From a virus (taxonomy: Duplodnaviria; Heunggongvirae; Uroviricota; Caudoviricetes), in the IMG/VR virus record IMGVR_UViG_2617271072_000004, positions 1-64,000 of that record: 64,000 nucleotides of DNA; one strand, 5' to 3'. A model generated the notes under the pieces. It saw nothing but the letters and a program-made list of their open reading frames with translations. It was not told where the DNA came from and searched no databases. The translations under genes and the position numbers were made by a program. Positions 32,221 to 52,525 of this stretch are shown piece after piece. Position 1 is the stretch's first letter; every line of letters starts with the position of its first letter.

Positions 32221-32254
32221 AGATAACTTCGTATAATGTATGCTATACGAAGTT
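32221..32254. other. loxP recombination site
   Basis: Exact ATAACTTCGTATA-ATGTATGC-TATACGAAGTTAT. Confidence 0.98.
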
Positions 32255-32299
32255 ATTAGGTCCGAAGAGGAGTTTACGTCCAGCTGCGCATAAAAATCA

Positions 32300-32316
32300 A
32301 GAATTATTAGAGCAAT
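32300..32316 (-). promoter_or_regulatory. C1 operator-like 17-mer in immC control region
   Basis: Contains reverse complement of ATTGCTCTAATAA. Confidence 0.55.
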
Positions 32317-32382
32317 AAATTTTGAGAGAAAAATCCCACTCCACCAGCCAAAAACTGGATTGTTTTTCATAGTTGTTTGACA

Positions 32383-32399
32383 ATTGCTCTAATAAATTA
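32383..32399 (+). promoter_or_regulatory. C1 operator
   Basis: ATTGCTCTAATAAATTA, 16 of 17 to consensus. Confidence 0.7.
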
Positions 32400-32637
32400 T
32401 AGTTTTGCCGCCGTTTCGTAATACGACTTTGGATTCACTATTTAATGTGTCTTCAGCGTTGTAGAGCGGCTCAGAAGGAAATGAGCAAACAGGGAAACCT
32501 TATACAACGGCATTACAGCTATGCATTGCTCATCTTACACACAGCGCAATGTTGTTAGATTACCCCAGCATGGATCATGGGTGAAACAGTAGGTCAGAGC
32601 TTCAGGCTCTGTGTTGTCAATACAGTGAGGCATAATT

Positions 32638-32847
32638 ATGGCTTTCATTCCACCAACCATCGACGACGTTAGACATTGCTCTAACGCTTTATCTGTAGAC
32701 CCCGCCGAAACCGACGCTGCCCGCGCCATTGCTGAACACTACTCAAAGATATCCAATCAGGAGTACCGCATCACCCAAGACGACCTGGATGATCTCACTG
32801 ACACAATCGAATATCTCATGGCCACTAACCAGCCAGACTCACAATAA
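32638..32847 (+). CDS. coi: C1 inactivator
   Basis: 69-aa ORF immediately upstream of c1. Confidence 0.75.
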   Translation: MAFIPPTIDDVRHCSNALSVDPAETDAARAIAEHYSKISNQEYRITQDDLDDLTDTIEYLMATNQPDSQ

Positions 32848-32957
32848 ATGCACTAATAAATCTATTATTTTCGTTGGATCCTTCTATAATGGTGGCCAAC
32901 AACTCCCAGTGTAATCCGCTGTGAGTTGTTGGCCATGTCAATTCTGGAGGAGGATCA

Positions 32958-33809
32958 ATGATAAATTATGTCTACGGCGAACAACTGTACCAGGAGTTCG
33001 TCAGCTTCAGGGATCTCTTTCTAAAAAAAGCTGTTGCACGCGCCCAACACGTTGATGCCGCCAGCGACGGTCGTCCTGTTCGCCCGGTTGTCGTTCTGCC
33101 GTTCAAAGAAACGGACAGCATTCAGGCTGAAATTGATAAATGGACTTTAATGGCGCGGGAACTGGAACAGTACCCAGACCTCAATATCCCAAAGACTATT
33201 TTATATCCAGTGCCTAACATCCTTCGCGGTGTGCGTAAGGTTACGACTTATCAGACAGAAGCTGTGAACAGCGTCAACATGACCGCTGGCCGCATTATTC
33301 ATCTGATTGATAAGGACATTCGCATCCAGAAAAGCGCGGGGATCAATGAGCACAGTGCGAAATACATAGAGAACCTGGAAGCAACAAAAGAGCTAATGAA
33401 GCAGTACCCGGAGGATGAAAAATTCCGTATGCGTGTACACGGCTTTAGCGAAACAATGCTGCGCGTCCACTACATTTCCAGTAGCCCTAACTACAATGAT
33501 GGTAAATCAGTTAGTTACCATGTGCCGCTGTGTGGTGTGTTTATCTGCGATGAAACTCTCCGTGATGGAATCATCATCAACGGTGAATTCGAGAAAGCAA
33601 AATTTAGCCTTTATGACTCTATAGAACCGATCATCTGCGACCGCTGGCCGCAGGCAAAAATATATCGCCTGGCAGATATTGAAAATGTAAAAAAACAAAT
33701 TGCCATCACTCGCGAAGAGAAAAAGGTCAAATCAGCCGCATCAGTTACGCGCAGCCGTAACACTAAGAAGGGGCAGCCAGTAAACGACAACCCCGAAAGC
33801 GCGCAATAG
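32958..33809 (+). CDS. c1: C1 primary repressor
   Basis: 283 aa starting MINYVYGEQLYQEF, recalled as P1 C1. Confidence 0.9.
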   Translation: MINYVYGEQLYQEFVSFRDLFLKKAVARAQHVDAASDGRPVRPVVVLPFKETDSIQAEIDKWTLMARELEQYPDLNIPKTILYPVPNILRGVRKVTTYQTEAVNSVNMTAGRIIHLIDKDIRIQKSAGINEHSAKYIENLEATKELMKQYPEDEKFRMRVHGFSETMLRVHYISSSPNYNDGKSVSYHVPLCGVFICDETLRDGIIINGEFEKAKFSLYDSIEPIICDRWPQAKIYRLADIENVKKQIAITREEKKVKSAASVTRSRNTKKGQPVNDNPESAQ

Positions 33810-33833
33810 TTTCTATCCGGCATGGTCAATGAG

Positions 33834-35318
33834 TTATTCATTAAGCCATGCCAGAGCTTCATCAACCTGCGCTTCGTCTTCGACGCTAAGCACTTCATCC
33901 TGGGGAACATAATCAGCCAGCATAGCGAAACAATATGTATCCCAATGGTCTGGTGAGTGCAGGTTGAGTTTTTTCTTCATATCCTCCTTACTCATCACCT
34001 TCCATTGACCTGCGGAGTTAATCCCTACAGGGATTTTCGACGCTTCCTCAATAGTTTCATTACCCTTATCCAGTCTCATACGACCAGATTTTACGGCCTC
34101 TGCGGCTTGAACGTTGGCATAAGCACGTTTATCAAAGTACAGGCTCTTATCTTCACGGCTATGCATCTTTTTACCCCAGCGTATACGCTGTACGGTAATA
34201 CCATAATACTCGTACATCAGATCCGCCGTTGCTTTACCCAGGCCATCGCCGTCTATCGCTATGGTGATATTGGGGAATCGCTCAGGATTACATTCTGCGA
34301 AAATTTTGGCGGCAAGCTGCGTTTCTGTAACGTCTGTGTATTCCAGCATTCGATAGTTGATTACACGGCGTTTATTTCGCTGGCCGGACACCATCATGAT
34401 ATTGATAACGGACTTATCCCGTCCCGTACCACCAGCAACGTCCACACATGCAAGCCAGCCCCATCCTTTTGCAATCTTGACTTTCCGCCGCGTTGCACGT
34501 TCAACCTCATCACGCCCAAGAAGGAAGCCATCCTGTGATTTAGGGAATAGGCCGCGTACCTTAATCATGTACATAGGGTTATCACGCCCGCCGTACTCCG
34601 CCAGCTTCATTTTGATAAATGCTGGCGTTACCAACGGTGATTCCTCACTGTTAAGCGTGATCGCCGTATAAACGCCATCAGGGTTACCAGGACGCTTGGC
34701 CAGTTTATGGTGTGTATCGTAGAAATAGCCGCTTGGGCGTGTAGGCTGTGACAGCAATAAGATGCGGTTATCCTGTCCGGTAAGAGCACCGGTGATGATA
34801 CCGAAAGCTCTATCACTGACACCGGAGGCTTCATCGATAATATACAGAAGATGATCTGCGTGTTCACCGGCGAGAGCTTCTTCACTTCCCAGACGAAAGC
34901 CCTTCGGTACTACAGTCCATACACCTTTACCAGTAATCTCATAGAAAGCGGTTTCTGTCAGAACAAAATAATCAGCAAGCCATGGGAAACGGCTGGTGGC
35001 AGTAGCCCAGTTTATCTTGATGTACTTGAATATACCGGTCATTACCTGCTGAATTTTGTTCGCAACGATAATGGCACGGGCACCTGGATACATGATTATG
35101 AACAACATGATCATGATAGAAGTCATGTCTGATTTCCCGGTACCGTGACCAGACGAAACAGATGTCTTGCTACCCTGTTCCTGCACAGACTCAATAATCA
35201 GATCCTGCTGCCAGGTAGGTGTTTTGCCGAACAAAACATCAGCGGCAGCAATCCAGTCATAACGATATAGCGCCACCAGCTCGCGCCAACGTGGATCCGT
35301 TACGCAACTTCTGGCCAT
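33834..35318 (-). CDS. pacB: terminase large subunit
   Basis: 494 aa; overlaps pacA stop; convergent with c1. Confidence 0.8.
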
Positions 35319-48795: not shown

Positions 48796-48973
48796 ACATC
48801 CCCCTTACCCATGTGCGACGATGCCGCCAAAAGTGATAGAGAACAGCCAGAAATAGATCGCGGCCATAATGATTTTGAATGCCGTGTTCATATTTTCAGC
48901 TCCTGTGATTGATTGGATACATGCCGCGCCTTGCGGCATGTTTTAATTTTCACTTTCTCTGTTTTAAAAATCA

Positions 48974-48990
48974 AGATTTATTAGAGCAAT
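48974..48990 (-). promoter_or_regulatory. C1 operator-like 17-mer
   Basis: Reverse complement ATTGCTCTAATAAATCT, 16 of 17. Confidence 0.6.
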
Positions 48991-49496: not shown

Positions 49497-49569
49497 ATGC
49501 CCTCCTCATTGGACGAAAAAAAATGCTGGTGGGCGCACTCCACCAGCATTAAAAGTGACGCTGTAACTA

Positions 49570-50832
49570 TCAGCGGACGTAAATAGTGCCGCCGTTCTCT
49601 TTTTCCCATGCATCGCTACGTGCATAGCAAACATCGAGAAGTCTTCTTGCCGCTGTTTCCTCTAAACCCAATTCGACAACCAACTGCTCATGACGGCGGG
49701 TAACCACATCAAACAGGGTATGCAACCCTTTAGTTGCCAGATCATCAATGAATTCCGGTTCGAACGGCAGCTCTGCATCTGCCAACATAACCTCTTGCGC
49801 CCACTCAACTCGACGGACCAATTCCGGGCGGCGGCTTTCCATCTCTTTACAGATCAATTCATGGAAGAACTCTACCCAACCTTCCGGCTGGAACTCGCGG
49901 AAAATTGCCAACGGCTGGAAGTTTGGCATCAACCATTCGTTGATTCGGATATCAATGGCATAGCCCATGTCGCAGCAGAACTGATAAGCAAAGTCCAGCT
50001 TAGAAACGATATAAGGACGCTCGTTATTGAACTCTTTAGGCGATGAGATCCCATAAGCCAGGAGGCGCGGGAAGAAGGAGATTTGCCCTAACGTCGGATG
50101 AAGTTTGCTTGCAGGGAAACGGCGCTCAGTAATGCCATACATTTCCTTCTTGAGCGTCGCAAATTTGGCATTCTCATTAACCAGCGCGGTAACCTCTGCT
50201 TTTTTATTAGCAAATGCCACGCGCGCTTCGCTTGCATCTTTAATAGTTTTTTTGAGCTGTTGGTTAAGGTCGGCGACCTGCTTACGCAGTTCCTGTCGCT
50301 CGCTTTTAGCTTTGTTATAGCGTTTCTCAAGGTTAAAAGGATCAAGTTTCATGATCTCTTTATATTGAGATTTTAGCGTTGAAATCTGTGAGTTCCGCAG
50401 TTCAACCATCGCGGTCATTTCATTGAGTTTTGTTTCCAGCTCAATGCTTATACGTTCGGCATTATCAGCACGCTGGTTGGCGTCATGCGTCGCATCGTCG
50501 ATCGCGTCCTGTTGCTGGCGTTTCAAATGTTCAATTTGTAGCTGAAGCTCTTCAATTTCTTTACCCTTCAGACCGAGATCCAACTGCATATTTTCAGCTG
50601 CATCTACCAGGGAGTTATGGCTATCAGCTTCTGCGTTATAAACATCAATAAGCTGTGCGTGAAGCATCTCCGCTGACTGAACCGCATTATCAAAAAAACG
50701 CGCTGTGAGGTCATCACAACTAACGCGGCGTTGCGCGGCCCGGATGTTCTGGATAATGGCCGGGATACCGGCATTCAGGACGTCAGGGATAGATACATTT
50801 TCGATTGATTGGTTTTGTGCTGAAGTGATCAT
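49570..50832 (-). CDS. hypothetical coiled-coil protein
   Basis: 420 aa, heptad-rich middle region. Confidence 0.5.
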   Translation of the reverse strand: MITSAQNQSIENVSIPDVLNAGIPAIIQNIRAAQRRVSCDDLTARFFDNAVQSAEMLHAQLIDVYNAEADSHNSLVDAAENMQLDLGLKGKEIEELQLQIEHLKRQQQDAIDDATHDANQRADNAERISIELETKLNEMTAMVELRNSQISTLKSQYKEIMKLDPFNLEKRYNKAKSERQELRKQVADLNQQLKKTIKDASEARVAFANKKAEVTALVNENAKFATLKKEMYGITERRFPASKLHPTLGQISFFPRLLAYGISSPKEFNNERPYIVSKLDFAYQFCCDMGYAIDIRINEWLMPNFQPLAIFREFQPEGWVEFFHELICKEMESRRPELVRRVEWAQEVMLADAELPFEPEFIDDLATKGLHTLFDVVTRRHEQLVVELGLEETAARRLLDVCYARSDAWEKENGGTIYVR

Positions 50833-50833
50833 T

Positions 50834-51103
50834 TCAAAGTTCCGTATTAGCTTGTGCTTCGGTCATTTTTCCTAAGTATGAAGGAGGAAGGACTACGCAA
50901 TTTGTATCCAGTCCCTCACCTATGGCAGCCTGTAAAATTCTGGCTAAGGTGAGTCTCTTGTTGCGATACCTGGTGATGACATGCCTGATACCGCCGGTCG
51001 GCGTAACAAAGGCGATCAGCCAGTAGTGATATTTCCGTCGGAATGGCCACATAGTGCACCTTGTAGATTGCTCTAATAAAAAAACGTGATGAGTGTACAT
51101 CAC
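50834..51103 (-). CDS. hypothetical small protein
   Basis: 89-aa ORF downstream of operator pair. Confidence 0.4.
   Translation of the reverse strand: MMYTHHVFLLEQSTRCTMWPFRRKYHYWLIAFVTPTGGIRHVITRYRNKRLTLARILQAAIGEGLDTNCVVLPPSYLGKMTEAQANTEL
51066..51082 (+). promoter_or_regulatory. C1 operator-like 17-mer
   Basis: ATTGCTCTAATAAAAAA. Confidence 0.55.
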
Positions 51104-51116
51104 GTTTTAAAAATAT

Positions 51117-51133
51117 GGAATTATTAGAGCAAT
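51117..51133 (-). promoter_or_regulatory. C1 operator-like 17-mer, inverted partner of 51066-51082
   Basis: Contains reverse complement of ATTGCTCTAATAA; coordinates +/-1 because the printed line is one base short. Confidence 0.5.
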
Positions 51134-51134
51134 A

Positions 51135-51836
51135 TTATTCTAATTCTCGCTCAAAAAATGAGCTGATAAGGGGAAGCCAATCCTCTGACACTTCGCGAGG
51201 TCGCGGTTTGCCGTGGAAAAAGATTATTCGGCAGTCTTTTGGTAATGCCCCATTCCCCCTGGAGTAACGCGCGCTCGCATATTTTGAACCAGGTTCCACA
51301 ACATCGGCCTTGTAACTTACAAACCATCCTGGATACAGATCCTGAAATGCTGGTGTATCATCGCCCATAACCTTTCGTAAGAACCCCTGGTCACCCCAGC
51401 ACTCAGTAGTGACACAACGAGAAATCCAACCTTCCGGATCTTGCCAGAATGAACTCCAGATATGCGCTTTAACACTATTTGGTATCCACAGGGCACCGCT
51501 GCCACGATATTGTGGATGGTAAAAATCCCTAAGCATGGTGAAGCTGGTTGGTGGATGCTCTAGGATTGGGCGTATATCACCGGCAATAACCGTGTCCAAA
51601 TCCAGATAGAACAGATCATCGGTTATATCCGGTCGGAACAACTCGATTTTCGCCCACCAGCCACGGCACTTTTGCCACTGGTTGATCAATGGGATAACTT
51701 TGACGCCAGGTACATGTAAACACTTCAGGTCTGTCAGGCAAATAATTTCATAGTCTTTTGGCAGTTGATTAACCAGCCACTGCACATCGGAAGCGTTATA
51801 GTCACCACCAGAGCGAAGAACTAAAGCAATCTTCAT
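51135..51836 (-). CDS. hypothetical protein
   Basis: 233-aa ORF overlapping ppp stop. Confidence 0.5.
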
Positions 51837-52525
51837 GCTGCACCATCACCTTTCACTTTCATCAATGTCAGGTTTCCGCAAAATACGGCACCAGTGTCGA
51901 TATACTGCTGATTCCAGAATGTCTTCGGGCTTTTCACCGGAGTGTGACCAAAGATAAAACGATCTGCGCCCGAAATTTCGCCACCAATATCATCCATCGA
52001 ATCACTGATACGCTCGCGCGCCCAGACAACGTTGAAAAGCGGTACCTCCTTACCGAATTGGTATTCATTATCCGGATAGTCGGCATGGGCTATAACGATA
52101 GTTTCTTGCCCGGTGTTCAACTCAATGATATAGGGCAGACGCTTTACCAGCTCCACCAGCGCCCAGGCTAATATTTCCTGATCAGTGTCCAGCATGAAGA
52201 ACCATTGTCCGCCATTCATTAGCCAGTTATTCACGTTGCCATCTGGACTTAACGCATCAATCATCAGCCGCTCATGGTTCCCCATCACTGCCCTGAACCA
52301 GGGCATCTGCAATAGTTCCAGACATTCGACATTTTCAGTACCGCGATCGATAAGGTCGCCGACCGATATCAGTAAATCCTGCGCCGGGTCAAAATCCACA
52401 CGATGGAGTTCGGACATCAGTCTGGTGTAGCAACCATGCAGATCACCAACAACCCAGACATTCCTGTATTTGGTACCGTCGATACGGTGATAAATTGTGG
52501 GTGCCATCATGTATTCTTCAGCCAT
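51833..52525 (-). CDS. ppp: lambda-type Ser/Thr protein phosphatase (metallophosphoesterase)
   Basis: GDLHGC, GDLIDRG, GNHE motifs. Confidence 0.9.

What the first reader, a model, noticed from the sequence alone, without database searches (positions are those of the whole stretch)
51060..51135. Inverted operator pair flanking a perfect palindrome
Two operator-like 17-mers in opposite orientation bracket AAAACGTGATG-AGTGTA-CATCACGTTTT (11-bp perfect arms). The arrangement sits between the stop of one gene and the start of the next on the same strand, suggesting a looped or bipartite repressor site combined with a terminator.
Basis: seen in the sequence. Interest (0 to 1): 0.4.

Follow-up and report, generated by a model that had tools for sequence, protein, structure and literature searches.

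The report
Phage P1 Op86 operators around terminator
This is the already catalogued pair of C1-repressor binding sites (Op86a/Op86b) in front of the phage P1 genes pmgR-pmgS; the palindrome between them is most likely an ordinary transcription terminator hairpin ending the upstream gene block, so the finding is real but not new.

Summary
Two perfect inverted 13-mers, ATTGCTCTAATAA (51067-51079 on +, 51133-51121 on -), bracket a perfect 11-bp palindrome with a 6-nt loop (51081-51108).

The window is a P1/P7-type phage-plasmid, 99.3-99.4% identical here. The two 17-mers are the operators annotated in the P1 and P7 GenBank records as OpmgRa/OpmgRb (former Op86a/b; Op(sht[a])/Op(sht[b])). They lie between pmgQ and pmgR on the minus strand, with a predicted promoter, PpmgR. 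The cognate C1 repressor is encoded in the same window.

New here: across eight diverged lineages the operator cores stay nearly invariant in sequence. The palindrome changes sequence but keeps pairing. Four pairs show compensatory changes, and G·U wobbles are tolerated only on the gene-sense strand, where stability stays at -13 to -15 kcal/mol. A U-tract follows in seven of eight lineages.

So the palindrome acts as an RNA hairpin, most likely the intrinsic terminator of the pmgN-pmgQ unit. Its U-tract doubles as the AT-rich tail of Op86b. The predicted PpmgR start lies inside the hairpin, so its transcripts would escape termination.

Looping is untested and unlikely at about 50 bp. The promoter's -10 is weak. 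Verdict: already known, low interest.

The parts
51135..51836 (-). pmgQ / hdmD, the last gene of the upstream pmgN-pmgO-pmgP-ppp-pmgQ unit. Its stop codon is at 51137-51135.
   Evidence: ORF; annotated PmgQ (P1) and HdmD (P7) at the homologous position.
51117..51133 (-). C1 operator Op86a = OpmgRa = Op(sht[a]): ATTGCTCTAATAATTCC. It starts 1 nt after the pmgQ stop codon and contains the predicted -35 hexamer TTGCTC.
   Evidence: Exact 13-mer core. Annotated as protein_bind 'phage repressor C1' in the P1 and P7 records. The core is conserved in all 8 lineages.
51104..51132 (-). Predicted sigma-70 promoter PpmgR: -35 TTGCTC (51132-51127), 17-nt spacer, -10 TAAAAC (51109-51104). The inferred start is about 51097/51096, in the hairpin loop.
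   Evidence: Annotated as a predicted promoter in the P1 record (locus-to-window offset +47400). The same TTGCTC-17-TAAAAC layout recurs at Op88. It was not detected by the consensus scan because the -10 lacks T at its last position.
51081..51108 (-). Hairpin on the sense (minus) strand: AAAACGUGAUG-UACACU-CAUCACGUUUU, 11 bp with a 6-nt loop, -12.9 kcal/mol.
   Evidence: Covariation over 17 distinct variants: 97.3% of cells paired, with 4 pairs changed on both sides.
51078..51084 (-). U-tract: T7 on the minus strand (A7 on the plus strand), following the G+C-containing part of the stem. It overlaps the AT-rich 3' tail of Op86b.
   Evidence: It is T6 in canonical P1 and in six other lineages, and TCTTGATT in the Pantoea element.
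51067..51083 (+). C1 operator Op86b = OpmgRb = Op(sht[b]): ATTGCTCTAATAAAAAA. It is inverted relative to the genes and lies between the hairpin and the pmgR ribosome-binding site.
   Evidence: The core ATTAGAGCAA (sense strand) is invariant in all 8 lineages.
50834..51062 (-). pmgR / shtA (ATG 51052, 72 aa) with the Shine-Dalgarno-like AAGGTG at 51062-51057.
   Evidence: The ATG is aligned in the diverged lineages.
49570..50832 (-). pmgS / shtB, the second gene of the C1-controlled unit.
49522..49550 (-). Strong terminator-like hairpin plus T-run just after the pmgS stop. It is the likely 3' boundary of the pmgR-pmgS unit.
32958..33806 (+). c1, which encodes the repressor that binds these operators.
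   Evidence: tblastn with P1 C1: 283 of 283 aa aligned at 99.3% identity.

Best explanation
The element is the known P1/P7 promoter-operator region of the pmgR-pmgS (sht) unit. It is built on top of the intrinsic terminator of the preceding pmgN-pmgQ unit. All parts act on the minus strand.

1. C1 repressor, encoded in the same element, binds two monovalent 17-bp operators. Op86a begins 1 nt after the pmgQ stop codon and covers the -35 of the predicted promoter PpmgR. Op86b is inverted and lies about 50 bp downstream, between the transcription start and the pmgR ribosome-binding site. Together they keep pmgR-pmgS silent in the lysogen. (Sequence identity with the annotated sites is shown. Binding and repression rest on prior P1 work and on the annotation.)

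2. The palindrome between them works as RNA. In transcripts arriving from pmgQ it folds into an 11-bp hairpin followed by U6-7. That is an intrinsic terminator, which insulates pmgR-pmgS from the upstream unit. (Structure conservation is shown. Termination is inferred.)

3. The U-tract is the same DNA as the AT-rich tail of Op86b, and the predicted -10 is the upstream arm of the hairpin. The three signals are therefore packed into 67 bp. Transcripts starting at PpmgR begin in the hairpin loop, lack the 5' arm, and should read through into pmgR. (Inferred.)
For: Identity with the catalogued element:
- The window is 99.3-99.4% identical to P1 and P7 here.
- The P1 record annotates OpmgRa (former Op86a, 'controls expression of pmgR and pmgS'), OpmgRb (former Op86b) and the predicted PpmgR at exactly these positions. 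The P7 record annotates Op(sht[a]) and Op(sht[b]) there.
- c1 is present in the window.

Operators are conserved as sequence:
- In 8 lineages whose flanking genes have diverged (PmgQ down to 68%, PmgS about 51%), the operator cores are the only invariant islands.
- Changes in one operator are not compensated in the other, as read from the sequences. They are therefore protein sites, not an RNA stem.

The palindrome is conserved as structure:
- The arms differ between lineages: AAAACGTGATG, AAAACATGGTG, GAAGCATGGTG, AAGGTGTGGTG.
- On the sense strand 97.3% of cells pair. Four of 11 pairs change on both sides, and 15 one-sided changes remain G·U against 5 unpaired cells.
- On the antisense strand only 3 one-sided changes stay paired, against 17 unpaired cells.
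- Sense-strand stability is -12.9 to -15.2 kcal/mol in all lineages. Antisense stability drops to -5.8 to -7.1 in four of them.

Terminator features and context:
- A hairpin followed by T7 was the only terminator-like hit in 50700-51400.
- It was among the three best in 16 kb, together with one just after pmgS.
- A transcript starting at the predicted start site is unstructured, z = +0.6.
- The TTGCTC-17-TAAAAC layout recurs at Op88.
Against: - No transcript mapping was available. Termination and the PpmgR start site are both inferred.
- The predicted -10, TAAAAC, lacks the conserved last T, and the consensus scan finds no promoter here.
- Its key second base is G in JK004 and in three P1-type contigs (TGAAGC, TGAAAC). 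That should cripple a sigma-70 -10 element. The change keeps the hairpin as G·U, so hairpin pairing rather than promoter function may be what selection preserves at that position.
- The Pantoea lineage keeps the hairpin but has a poor U-tract, TCTTGATT.
- The stem is A+U-rich (4 G-C pairs of 11), so termination may be only partial.
- The covariation rests on few independent lineages. The tested structure was derived from one of the sequences, which inflates the paired-cell percentage. Counted as events rather than cells, the strand asymmetry is about 8-9 against 3.
Confidence: 0.65

Rival explanations
1. Looped or cooperative bipartite operator. C1 molecules on Op86a and Op86b contact each other and loop or wrap the intervening 33 bp. 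The palindrome would act at the DNA level, as a bendable or cruciform segment or as the site of a second protein, and not as RNA.
For: - The two sites are perfect inverted copies with nearly fixed spacing: a 61-nt pattern in 7 of 8 lineages and in about 100 P1-type contigs.
- C1-mediated looping between operators has been reported at the c1 locus (my recollection of Heinzel et al. 1994; not checked here).
Against: - The centre-to-centre distance is 49-50 bp, far below the usual length for protein-mediated loops and not an integral number of helical turns.
- +1 indels on either side of the hairpin are tolerated (window and L039; L082).
- The arm sequences change freely as long as pairing is kept, and G·U pairs are tolerated on one strand only. 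That is the signature of an RNA hairpin, not of a protein-recognised or cruciform DNA palindrome.
- The fixed spacing is equally explained by packing a promoter, a hairpin and a U-tract between the sites.
Confidence: 0.08
2. There is no promoter here. pmgR-pmgS are transcribed by read-through from upstream promoters. The two operators act as C1 roadblocks flanking a leaky terminator or attenuator, so C1 plus the hairpin simply stop residual upstream transcription in the lysogen.
For: - The -10 of PpmgR is poor and not conserved, including A to G changes at its critical second base in two lineages.
- The hairpin is moderately weak: the G+C-containing core is -8.5 kcal/mol.
- In D6, pmgR-pmgS sit in one uninterrupted operon with pmgM.
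Against: - The same TTGCTC-17-TAAAAC cassette recurs at Op88, in front of pmgT.
- P1 annotators place promoters at both sites.
- In the annotated cases seen here, C1 operators overlap promoters.
- pmgR is reported essential (PMC10695390), and it would then lie behind a conserved terminator.
Confidence: 0.17
3. The hairpin is an RNA element other than a terminator: a 3'-end stabiliser or RNase processing site for the pmgQ message, or a leader attenuator acting on pmgR transcripts that start upstream of it.
For: - Structure conservation on the sense strand does not by itself distinguish termination from stabilisation or processing.
- The Pantoea lineage keeps the hairpin without a good U-tract.
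Against: - Seven of eight lineages have 7 U in the 8 nt after the G+C core, which is the defining terminator feature.
- No candidate promoter places the start upstream of the whole hairpin.
- There is no Rfam match.
Confidence: 0.08

Closest known systems
P1 operators OpmgRa/OpmgRb (former Op86a/Op86b) with predicted promoter PpmgR; P7 Op(sht[a])/Op(sht[b])
   Same: It is the same locus. The flanking DNA is 99.3-99.4% identical. The operator sequences, orientation and position between pmgQ/hdmD and pmgR/shtA are the same.
   Different: - The window has one extra T in the U-tract and operator tail (T7 against T6).
- The hairpin between the operators carries no feature in either GenBank record.
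- I could not read Lobocka et al. 2004 to see whether the paper lists the hairpin as a terminator.
P1 OpmgT (former Op88) promoter-operator cassette in front of pmgT
   Same: - The operator starts at the stop codon of the preceding gene.
- The layout is identical, ATTGCTCTAATAA-N6-ATTTTTAAAAC.
- A hairpin lies a few tens of nt downstream.
   Different: - It has a single operator and no inverted partner.
- Its hairpin is G+C-rich and has a T-run only on the opposite strand.
Bivalent C1 operators of P1 (for example Oc1ab, former Op99a/b)
   Same: Two inverted C1 17-mers act on one promoter.
   Different: In bivalent operators the two 17-mers overlap to give a 28-bp imperfect palindrome. Here they are separate monovalent sites with 33 bp, a hairpin and a promoter -10 between them.
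Canonical Rho-independent terminators; also 'moron'-type phage accessory modules bounded by their own promoter and terminator (general knowledge)
   Same: - There is a stem-loop plus U-tract just after the last gene of a unit.
- The upstream pmgN-pmgQ block is dispensable (PMC10695390), variable in content and absent from the D6 pmgM-pmgR-pmgS operon.
   Different: - The terminator is interleaved with repressor sites and with the next promoter.
- Its stem is A+U-rich.
- Termination activity is unmeasured.

Membership tests
P1-type C1 repressor operator | Asymmetric 17-bp match to ATTGCTCTAATAAATTT | tested here: met
   Both sites match 13 of 13 in the core and 14 of 17 overall (consensus from PMC8546580).
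P1-type C1 repressor operator | Cognate C1 repressor encoded by the same element | tested here: met
   c1 at 32958-33806, 99.3% identical to P1 C1.
P1-type C1 repressor operator | Positional identity with catalogued operators (Op86a/b) | tested here: met
   protein_bind features in AF234172 and AF503408 map onto 51067-51083 and 51117-51133.
P1-type C1 repressor operator | Sequence, not pairing, conserved in diverged relatives | tested here: met
   The cores are invariant or nearly so in 8 lineages. Substitutions in one site are not compensated in the other.
P1-type C1 repressor operator | Direct C1 binding and repression of the downstream genes | not testable with these tools
   This rests on the annotation notes and on older binding studies that I could not retrieve.
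Intrinsic (Rho-independent) terminator | Stable stem-loop in the transcript | tested here: met
   11-bp stem with a 6-nt loop, -12.9 kcal/mol on the sense strand.
Intrinsic (Rho-independent) terminator | U-tract immediately 3' of the stem | tested here: met
   U7 in the window. Seven of eight lineages have 7 U in the 8 nt after the G+C core; Pantoea has only 5 of 8.
Intrinsic (Rho-independent) terminator | Pairing maintained by compensatory change on the transcribed-sense strand | tested here: met
   Four pairs are changed on both sides. Cells paired: 97.3% on the sense strand against 90.9% on the antisense strand. One-sided changes: 15 kept as G·U and 5 unpaired on the sense strand, against 3 kept and 17 unpaired on the antisense strand. 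Few independent lineages.
Intrinsic (Rho-independent) terminator | Location at the 3' end of a transcription unit | tested here: met
   The hairpin starts 27 nt after the pmgQ stop codon.
Intrinsic (Rho-independent) terminator | Measured termination of RNA polymerase | not testable with these tools
   No transcript-end data were found in the papers searched.
Sigma-70 promoter (PpmgR) | -35 and -10 hexamers with a 16-18 nt spacer, including A at -11 and T at -7 | tested here: inconclusive
   TTGCTC-17-TAAAAC has no T at -7 and is missed by the scan. The base at -11 is G in JK004 and in L059-type contigs. The identical cassette recurs at Op88.
Bivalent C1 operator | Two 17-mers overlapping into one imperfect palindrome of about 28 bp | tested here: not met
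   The 17-mers are 33 bp apart; compare Oc1ab.
Repressor-mediated DNA loop | Cooperative binding that depends on helical phasing of distant sites | not testable with these tools
   The distance is 49-50 bp centre to centre, and +1 indel variants exist.

The most novel reading that the evidence does not exclude
The overlap may be functional rather than just compact. The U-tract of the terminator is the tail of Op86b, and the 5' arm of the hairpin carries the predicted -10. C1 bound at Op86b would sit exactly where polymerase pauses to terminate. It could then act as a roadblock that raises termination of upstream transcripts in the lysogen. On derepression the same 67 bp would switch to a leaky terminator plus an internal promoter whose transcripts lack the 5' arm. 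That would make it a repressor-tuned terminator/promoter insulator at the junction where an accessory module (pmgN-pmgQ) was inserted into an ancestral pmgM-pmgR-pmgS operon.
Probability: 0.15. Interest if true: 0.4.

Novelty: already known. Interest (0 to 1): 0.15.

Why it matters
It matters little beyond P1 biology. The operator pair has been in the P1 and P7 annotations for about twenty years.

The modest added value is comparative evidence that the un-annotated palindrome is a selected RNA hairpin on the gene-sense strand, probably the terminator that separates the dispensable pmgN-pmgQ block from the pmgR-pmgS unit (pmgR is reported essential). The predicted promoter PpmgR also rests on a weak, poorly conserved -10.

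This is useful for people who engineer P1 phage-plasmids or annotate the roughly 700 P1-like plasmids that carry the region. It is also a tidy example of operator, promoter and terminator signals sharing the same bases.

Tried and rejected
- **Literature.** Lobocka et al. 2004 (PMC523184) and Windle et al. 1988 (PMC211533) are not held. Full-text searches for Op86 and for other operator names found nothing relevant. The P1 transcriptome papers gave no transcript ends or per-gene boundary data for this locus. The CRISPRi essentiality screen cannot be used to infer an independent pmgR promoter, because the pmgR knock-down itself gave no phenotype.
- **Collection scans.** The loop motif TGGTGTATYATCRCCA was far too unspecific in IMG/VR: 120 hits, nearly all chance, with only L188 new. 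The combined operator-loop-operator pattern added one metagenome lineage, L250; the other ten hits were chance. The genome-contig scan with PmgQ gave only three loci.
- **D6.** It has pmgR-pmgS homologues but no intergenic region upstream of pmgR, so the architecture cannot be compared at that distance.
- **Rfam.** There was no meaningful match; the only hit was a miRNA family at E = 0.96.
- **Outer stem.** The long 13-bp stem that the two operators would form in a read-through RNA was rejected as a selected structure, because operator substitutions are not compensated.
- **Plus-strand promoter at Op86b.** Reading the sequence, no acceptable -10 follows TTGCTC, so this was rejected.
- **ORFs.** The 50-aa plus-strand ORF at 51115-51267 and the 89-aa GTG-extended form of pmgR were rejected. 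Their starts are not conserved, whereas the annotated ATG with its ribosome-binding site is.
- **Alignment.** The MAFFT alignment of the full 66-nt region misplaced one gap in the Pantoea sequence. I re-aligned the hairpin alone, without gaps, for pair counting.

Full report
**1. The observation**

The plus strand at 51060-51135 reads cttgtagATTGCTCTAATAAAAAAACGTGATGAGTGTACATCACGTTTTAAAAATATGGAATTATTAGAGCAATat.

- The 13-mer ATTGCTCTAATAA lies at 51067-51079 (+) and, as a perfect inverted copy, at 51133-51121 (-).
- Between the copies lie perfect 11-bp arms, AAAACGTGATG and CATCACGTTTT (51081-51091 and 51098-51108), with a 6-nt loop.
- The exact 13-mer occurs five times in the window. With up to 2 mismatches there are ten sites against 2.0 expected, and none of 100 shuffles reached ten.
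- A perfect stem of at least 11 bp arose in 4 of 200,000 shuffles of the 41-nt spacer.
- The 96-nt region folds with z = -5.8 on the minus strand and -5.3 on the plus strand.

The description is accurate and the arrangement is not chance.

**2. What the locus is**

The window is a P1/P7-type phage-plasmid. Positions 50400-51900 are 99.3-99.4% identical to P1 (AF234172) and P7 (AF503408), and 687 plasmid records carry the region.

All genes here are on the minus strand. pmgQ/hdmD is 51135..51836, pmgR/shtA is 50834..51052 and pmgS/shtB is 49570..50832.

The P1 record annotates the following at the homologous positions:
- the 'monovalent C1-controlled operator OpmgRa; former Op86a; controls expression of pmgR and pmgS';
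- 'OpmgRb; former Op86b';
- a predicted sigma-70 promoter, PpmgR, with its -35 inside OpmgRa.

The P7 record annotates the same two sites as Op(sht[a]) and Op(sht[b]).

Mapped to the window:
- Op86b is 51067-51083 (+).
- Op86a is 51133-51117 (-).
- PpmgR has -35 TTGCTC at 51132-51127, a 17-nt spacer and -10 TAAAAC at 51109-51104.

Each 17-mer matches 14 of 17 positions of the published consensus ATTGCTCTAATAAATTT. P1 is said to carry 22 such operators (PMC8546580). The repressor gene c1 is in the window at 32958-33806, 99.3% identical to P1 C1.

The palindrome carries no feature in either record. That says little, because a much stronger terminator-like hairpin after pmgS is also un-annotated, and I saw no terminator features in any part of the P1 record that I inspected.

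**3. Relatives**

Most relatives are 95-100% identical. I assembled eight distinguishable lineages of the pmgQ-pmgR intergenic region:
- the window type (T7) and canonical P1 (T6);
- a Salmonella Newport plasmid type (L004);
- L063;
- Cronobacter phage JK004 (L003);
- the metagenome contig L250;
- the IMG/VR contig L188;
- a Pantoea element (L007).

There are also about a dozen single-base P1-type variants. Between the extremes PmgQ is 68% identical and PmgS about 51%. In a multiple alignment the operator cores are the only invariant islands. The end of pmgQ and the stretch between Op86b and the pmgR ATG diverge freely.

**4. Two different kinds of conservation**

The operators are conserved as sequence:
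- Where one operator changes, the other does not compensate. Examples are ATTACTC in Pantoea, ATTGTTC in L188, and the last base of Op86b being A, C or T.
- The 13-bp outer stem they would form in RNA is therefore a by-product of two protein-binding sites.

The palindrome is conserved as pairing:
- The arms read AAAACGTGATG/CATCACGTTTT in P1, AAAACATGGTG/CACCATGTTTT in Newport, GAAGCATGGTG/CGCCATGTTTT in JK004 and AAGGTGTGGTG/CGCCACATCTT in Pantoea.
- On a gapless alignment of 17 distinct variants, the gene-sense strand has 97.3% of cells paired.
- Four of the 11 pairs change on both sides.
- Fifteen one-sided changes stay paired as G·U or U·G, against five unpaired cells. Shifted-partner controls give 38-72% pairing.
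- On the opposite strand the same changes give 90.9% pairing, with only three wobble-compatible one-sided changes against 17 unpaired cells.
- Predicted stability on the sense strand is -12.9 to -15.2 kcal/mol in all eight lineages. The antisense hairpin falls to -5.8 to -7.1 in four of them.

Caveats:
- The number of independent lineages is small.
- The structure was derived from one of the sequences.
- Counted as events, the strand asymmetry is roughly 8-9 against 3.

Even so, compensatory changes together with one-strand-only wobble tolerance point to an RNA hairpin on the minus-strand transcript. They argue against a DNA palindrome recognised by a protein.

**5. Terminator reading**

- On the minus strand the hairpin is followed by U7 in the window and U6 in canonical P1.
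- It was the only terminator-like hit in 50700-51400.
- It was one of the three best in 44-60 kb. Another lies immediately after the pmgS stop codon at 49550-49522, so pmgR-pmgS is bracketed by two such signals.
- Seven of eight lineages have 7 U in the 8 nt after the G+C-containing core. Pantoea has TCTTGATT.
- The hairpin starts 27 nt after the pmgQ stop codon.

The upstream block pmgN-pmgO-pmgP-ppp-pmgQ is dispensable (PMC10695390) and appears to have fewer genes in JK004. It is absent from the D6 arrangement, where pmgM, orf11, pmgR and pmgS are contiguous. An accessory module that carries its own C1-controlled promoter (Op83/PpmgN) and ends in its own terminator fits this picture. That last step is inference.

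**6. How the signals overlap**

- The U-tract (51078-51084) is the AT-rich tail of Op86b.
- The predicted -10 (51109-51104) is the 5' arm of the hairpin.
- With the standard 7-nt distance, the PpmgR start falls at 51097/51096, in the loop.
- An RNA starting there has no significant structure (z = +0.6) and would run on to the ribosome-binding site AAGGTG (51062-51057) and the pmgR ATG.
- Upstream transcripts would thus be terminated, while PpmgR transcripts cannot form the terminator.

**7. Weak points**

PpmgR is only predicted:
- Its -10 lacks the conserved final T and fails the consensus scan.
- The critical second base is G in JK004 (TGAAGC) and in three P1-type contigs (TGAAAC). This change preserves hairpin pairing as G·U.
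- In favour of the promoter, the identical layout ATTGCTCTAATAA-N6-ATTTTTAAAAC recurs at Op88 in front of pmgT.
- Also in its favour, the annotated C1 operators I inspected sit on promoters.

A promoter-less roadblock model therefore stays open, at about 0.17.

Looping is unsupported:
- The sites are 49-50 bp centre to centre.
- +1 indels are tolerated.
- The near-constant spacing is equally explained by the packed signals.

No transcript-end data were found.

**8. Comparison and verdict**

The finding is the known P1 Op86a/Op86b (OpmgRa/b) promoter-operator region. It is not a bivalent operator, because the 17-mers are 33 bp apart (compare Oc1ab). There is no Rfam family for the hairpin.

The palindrome meets the sequence-level criteria of an intrinsic terminator, but its activity is untested. 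Novelty: already known. The comparative evidence for the hairpin is a small refinement of the annotation. Interest: 0.15.

Noticed in passing
window 49522-49550 (minus strand): A strong terminator-like hairpin, AATGCTGGTGG-AGTGCGC-CCACCAGCATT, followed by T8 lies immediately after the pmgS stop codon and before pap. It has no feature in the P1 or P7 records. With the Op86 hairpin it brackets pmgR-pmgS as a discrete unit.
   Followed up: partly
window 48919-48990 (minus strand): The Op88/OpmgT cassette has the same layout as Op86a, ATTGCTCTAATAA-N6-ATTTTTAAAAC, and starts at the pap stop codon. About 35 nt downstream is a G+C-rich hairpin (48919-48941) that looks like a terminator only for the plus strand, where no gene is annotated.
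   Followed up: partly
window 51078-51084: The window has a run of 7 A/T where canonical P1, P7 and all other lineages have 6. The only other carrier found is the IMG/VR contig L039. This lengthens the U-tract and moves the two operators 1 bp further apart.
   Followed up: partly
L003 (JK004) 2700-2790; IMG/VR loci L059, L118, L125: An A to G change at the predicted -11 base of PpmgR (TAAAAC to TGAAGC or TGAAAC) occurs in two independent lineages. It keeps the hairpin paired as G·U but should disable a sigma-70 -10 element. This questions the annotated promoter.
   Followed up: partly
L259 (phage D6) 1346-3673: In D6, pmgM, orf11, pmgR and pmgS are contiguous, and orf11 overlaps pmgR. There is no pmgN-pmgQ block and no operator-hairpin junction. 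This suggests that pmgN-pmgQ was inserted as an accessory module in the P1 lineage.
   Followed up: no
window 32240-34730: The immunity (ImmC) region is only 93.7% identical to P1 at the DNA level, while the rest of the tested DNA is about 99% and the C1 protein is 99.3% identical. Three strong C1 operator matches lie here at 32316 (-), 32383 (+) and 32847 (+).
   Followed up: no
window 54742-54758 (plus strand): Op83/Oppp (ATTGCACTAATAATTTT), between pmgM and pmgN, is inverted relative to the genes, as Op86b is. No hairpin accompanies it.
   Followed up: no
window 51115-51267 (+) and 50834-51103 (-): There is a 50-aa plus-strand ORF starting inside the intergenic region, and an 89-aa GTG-extended version of pmgR starting inside the hairpin. 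Neither start is conserved in relatives, so both are probably spurious.
   Followed up: yes
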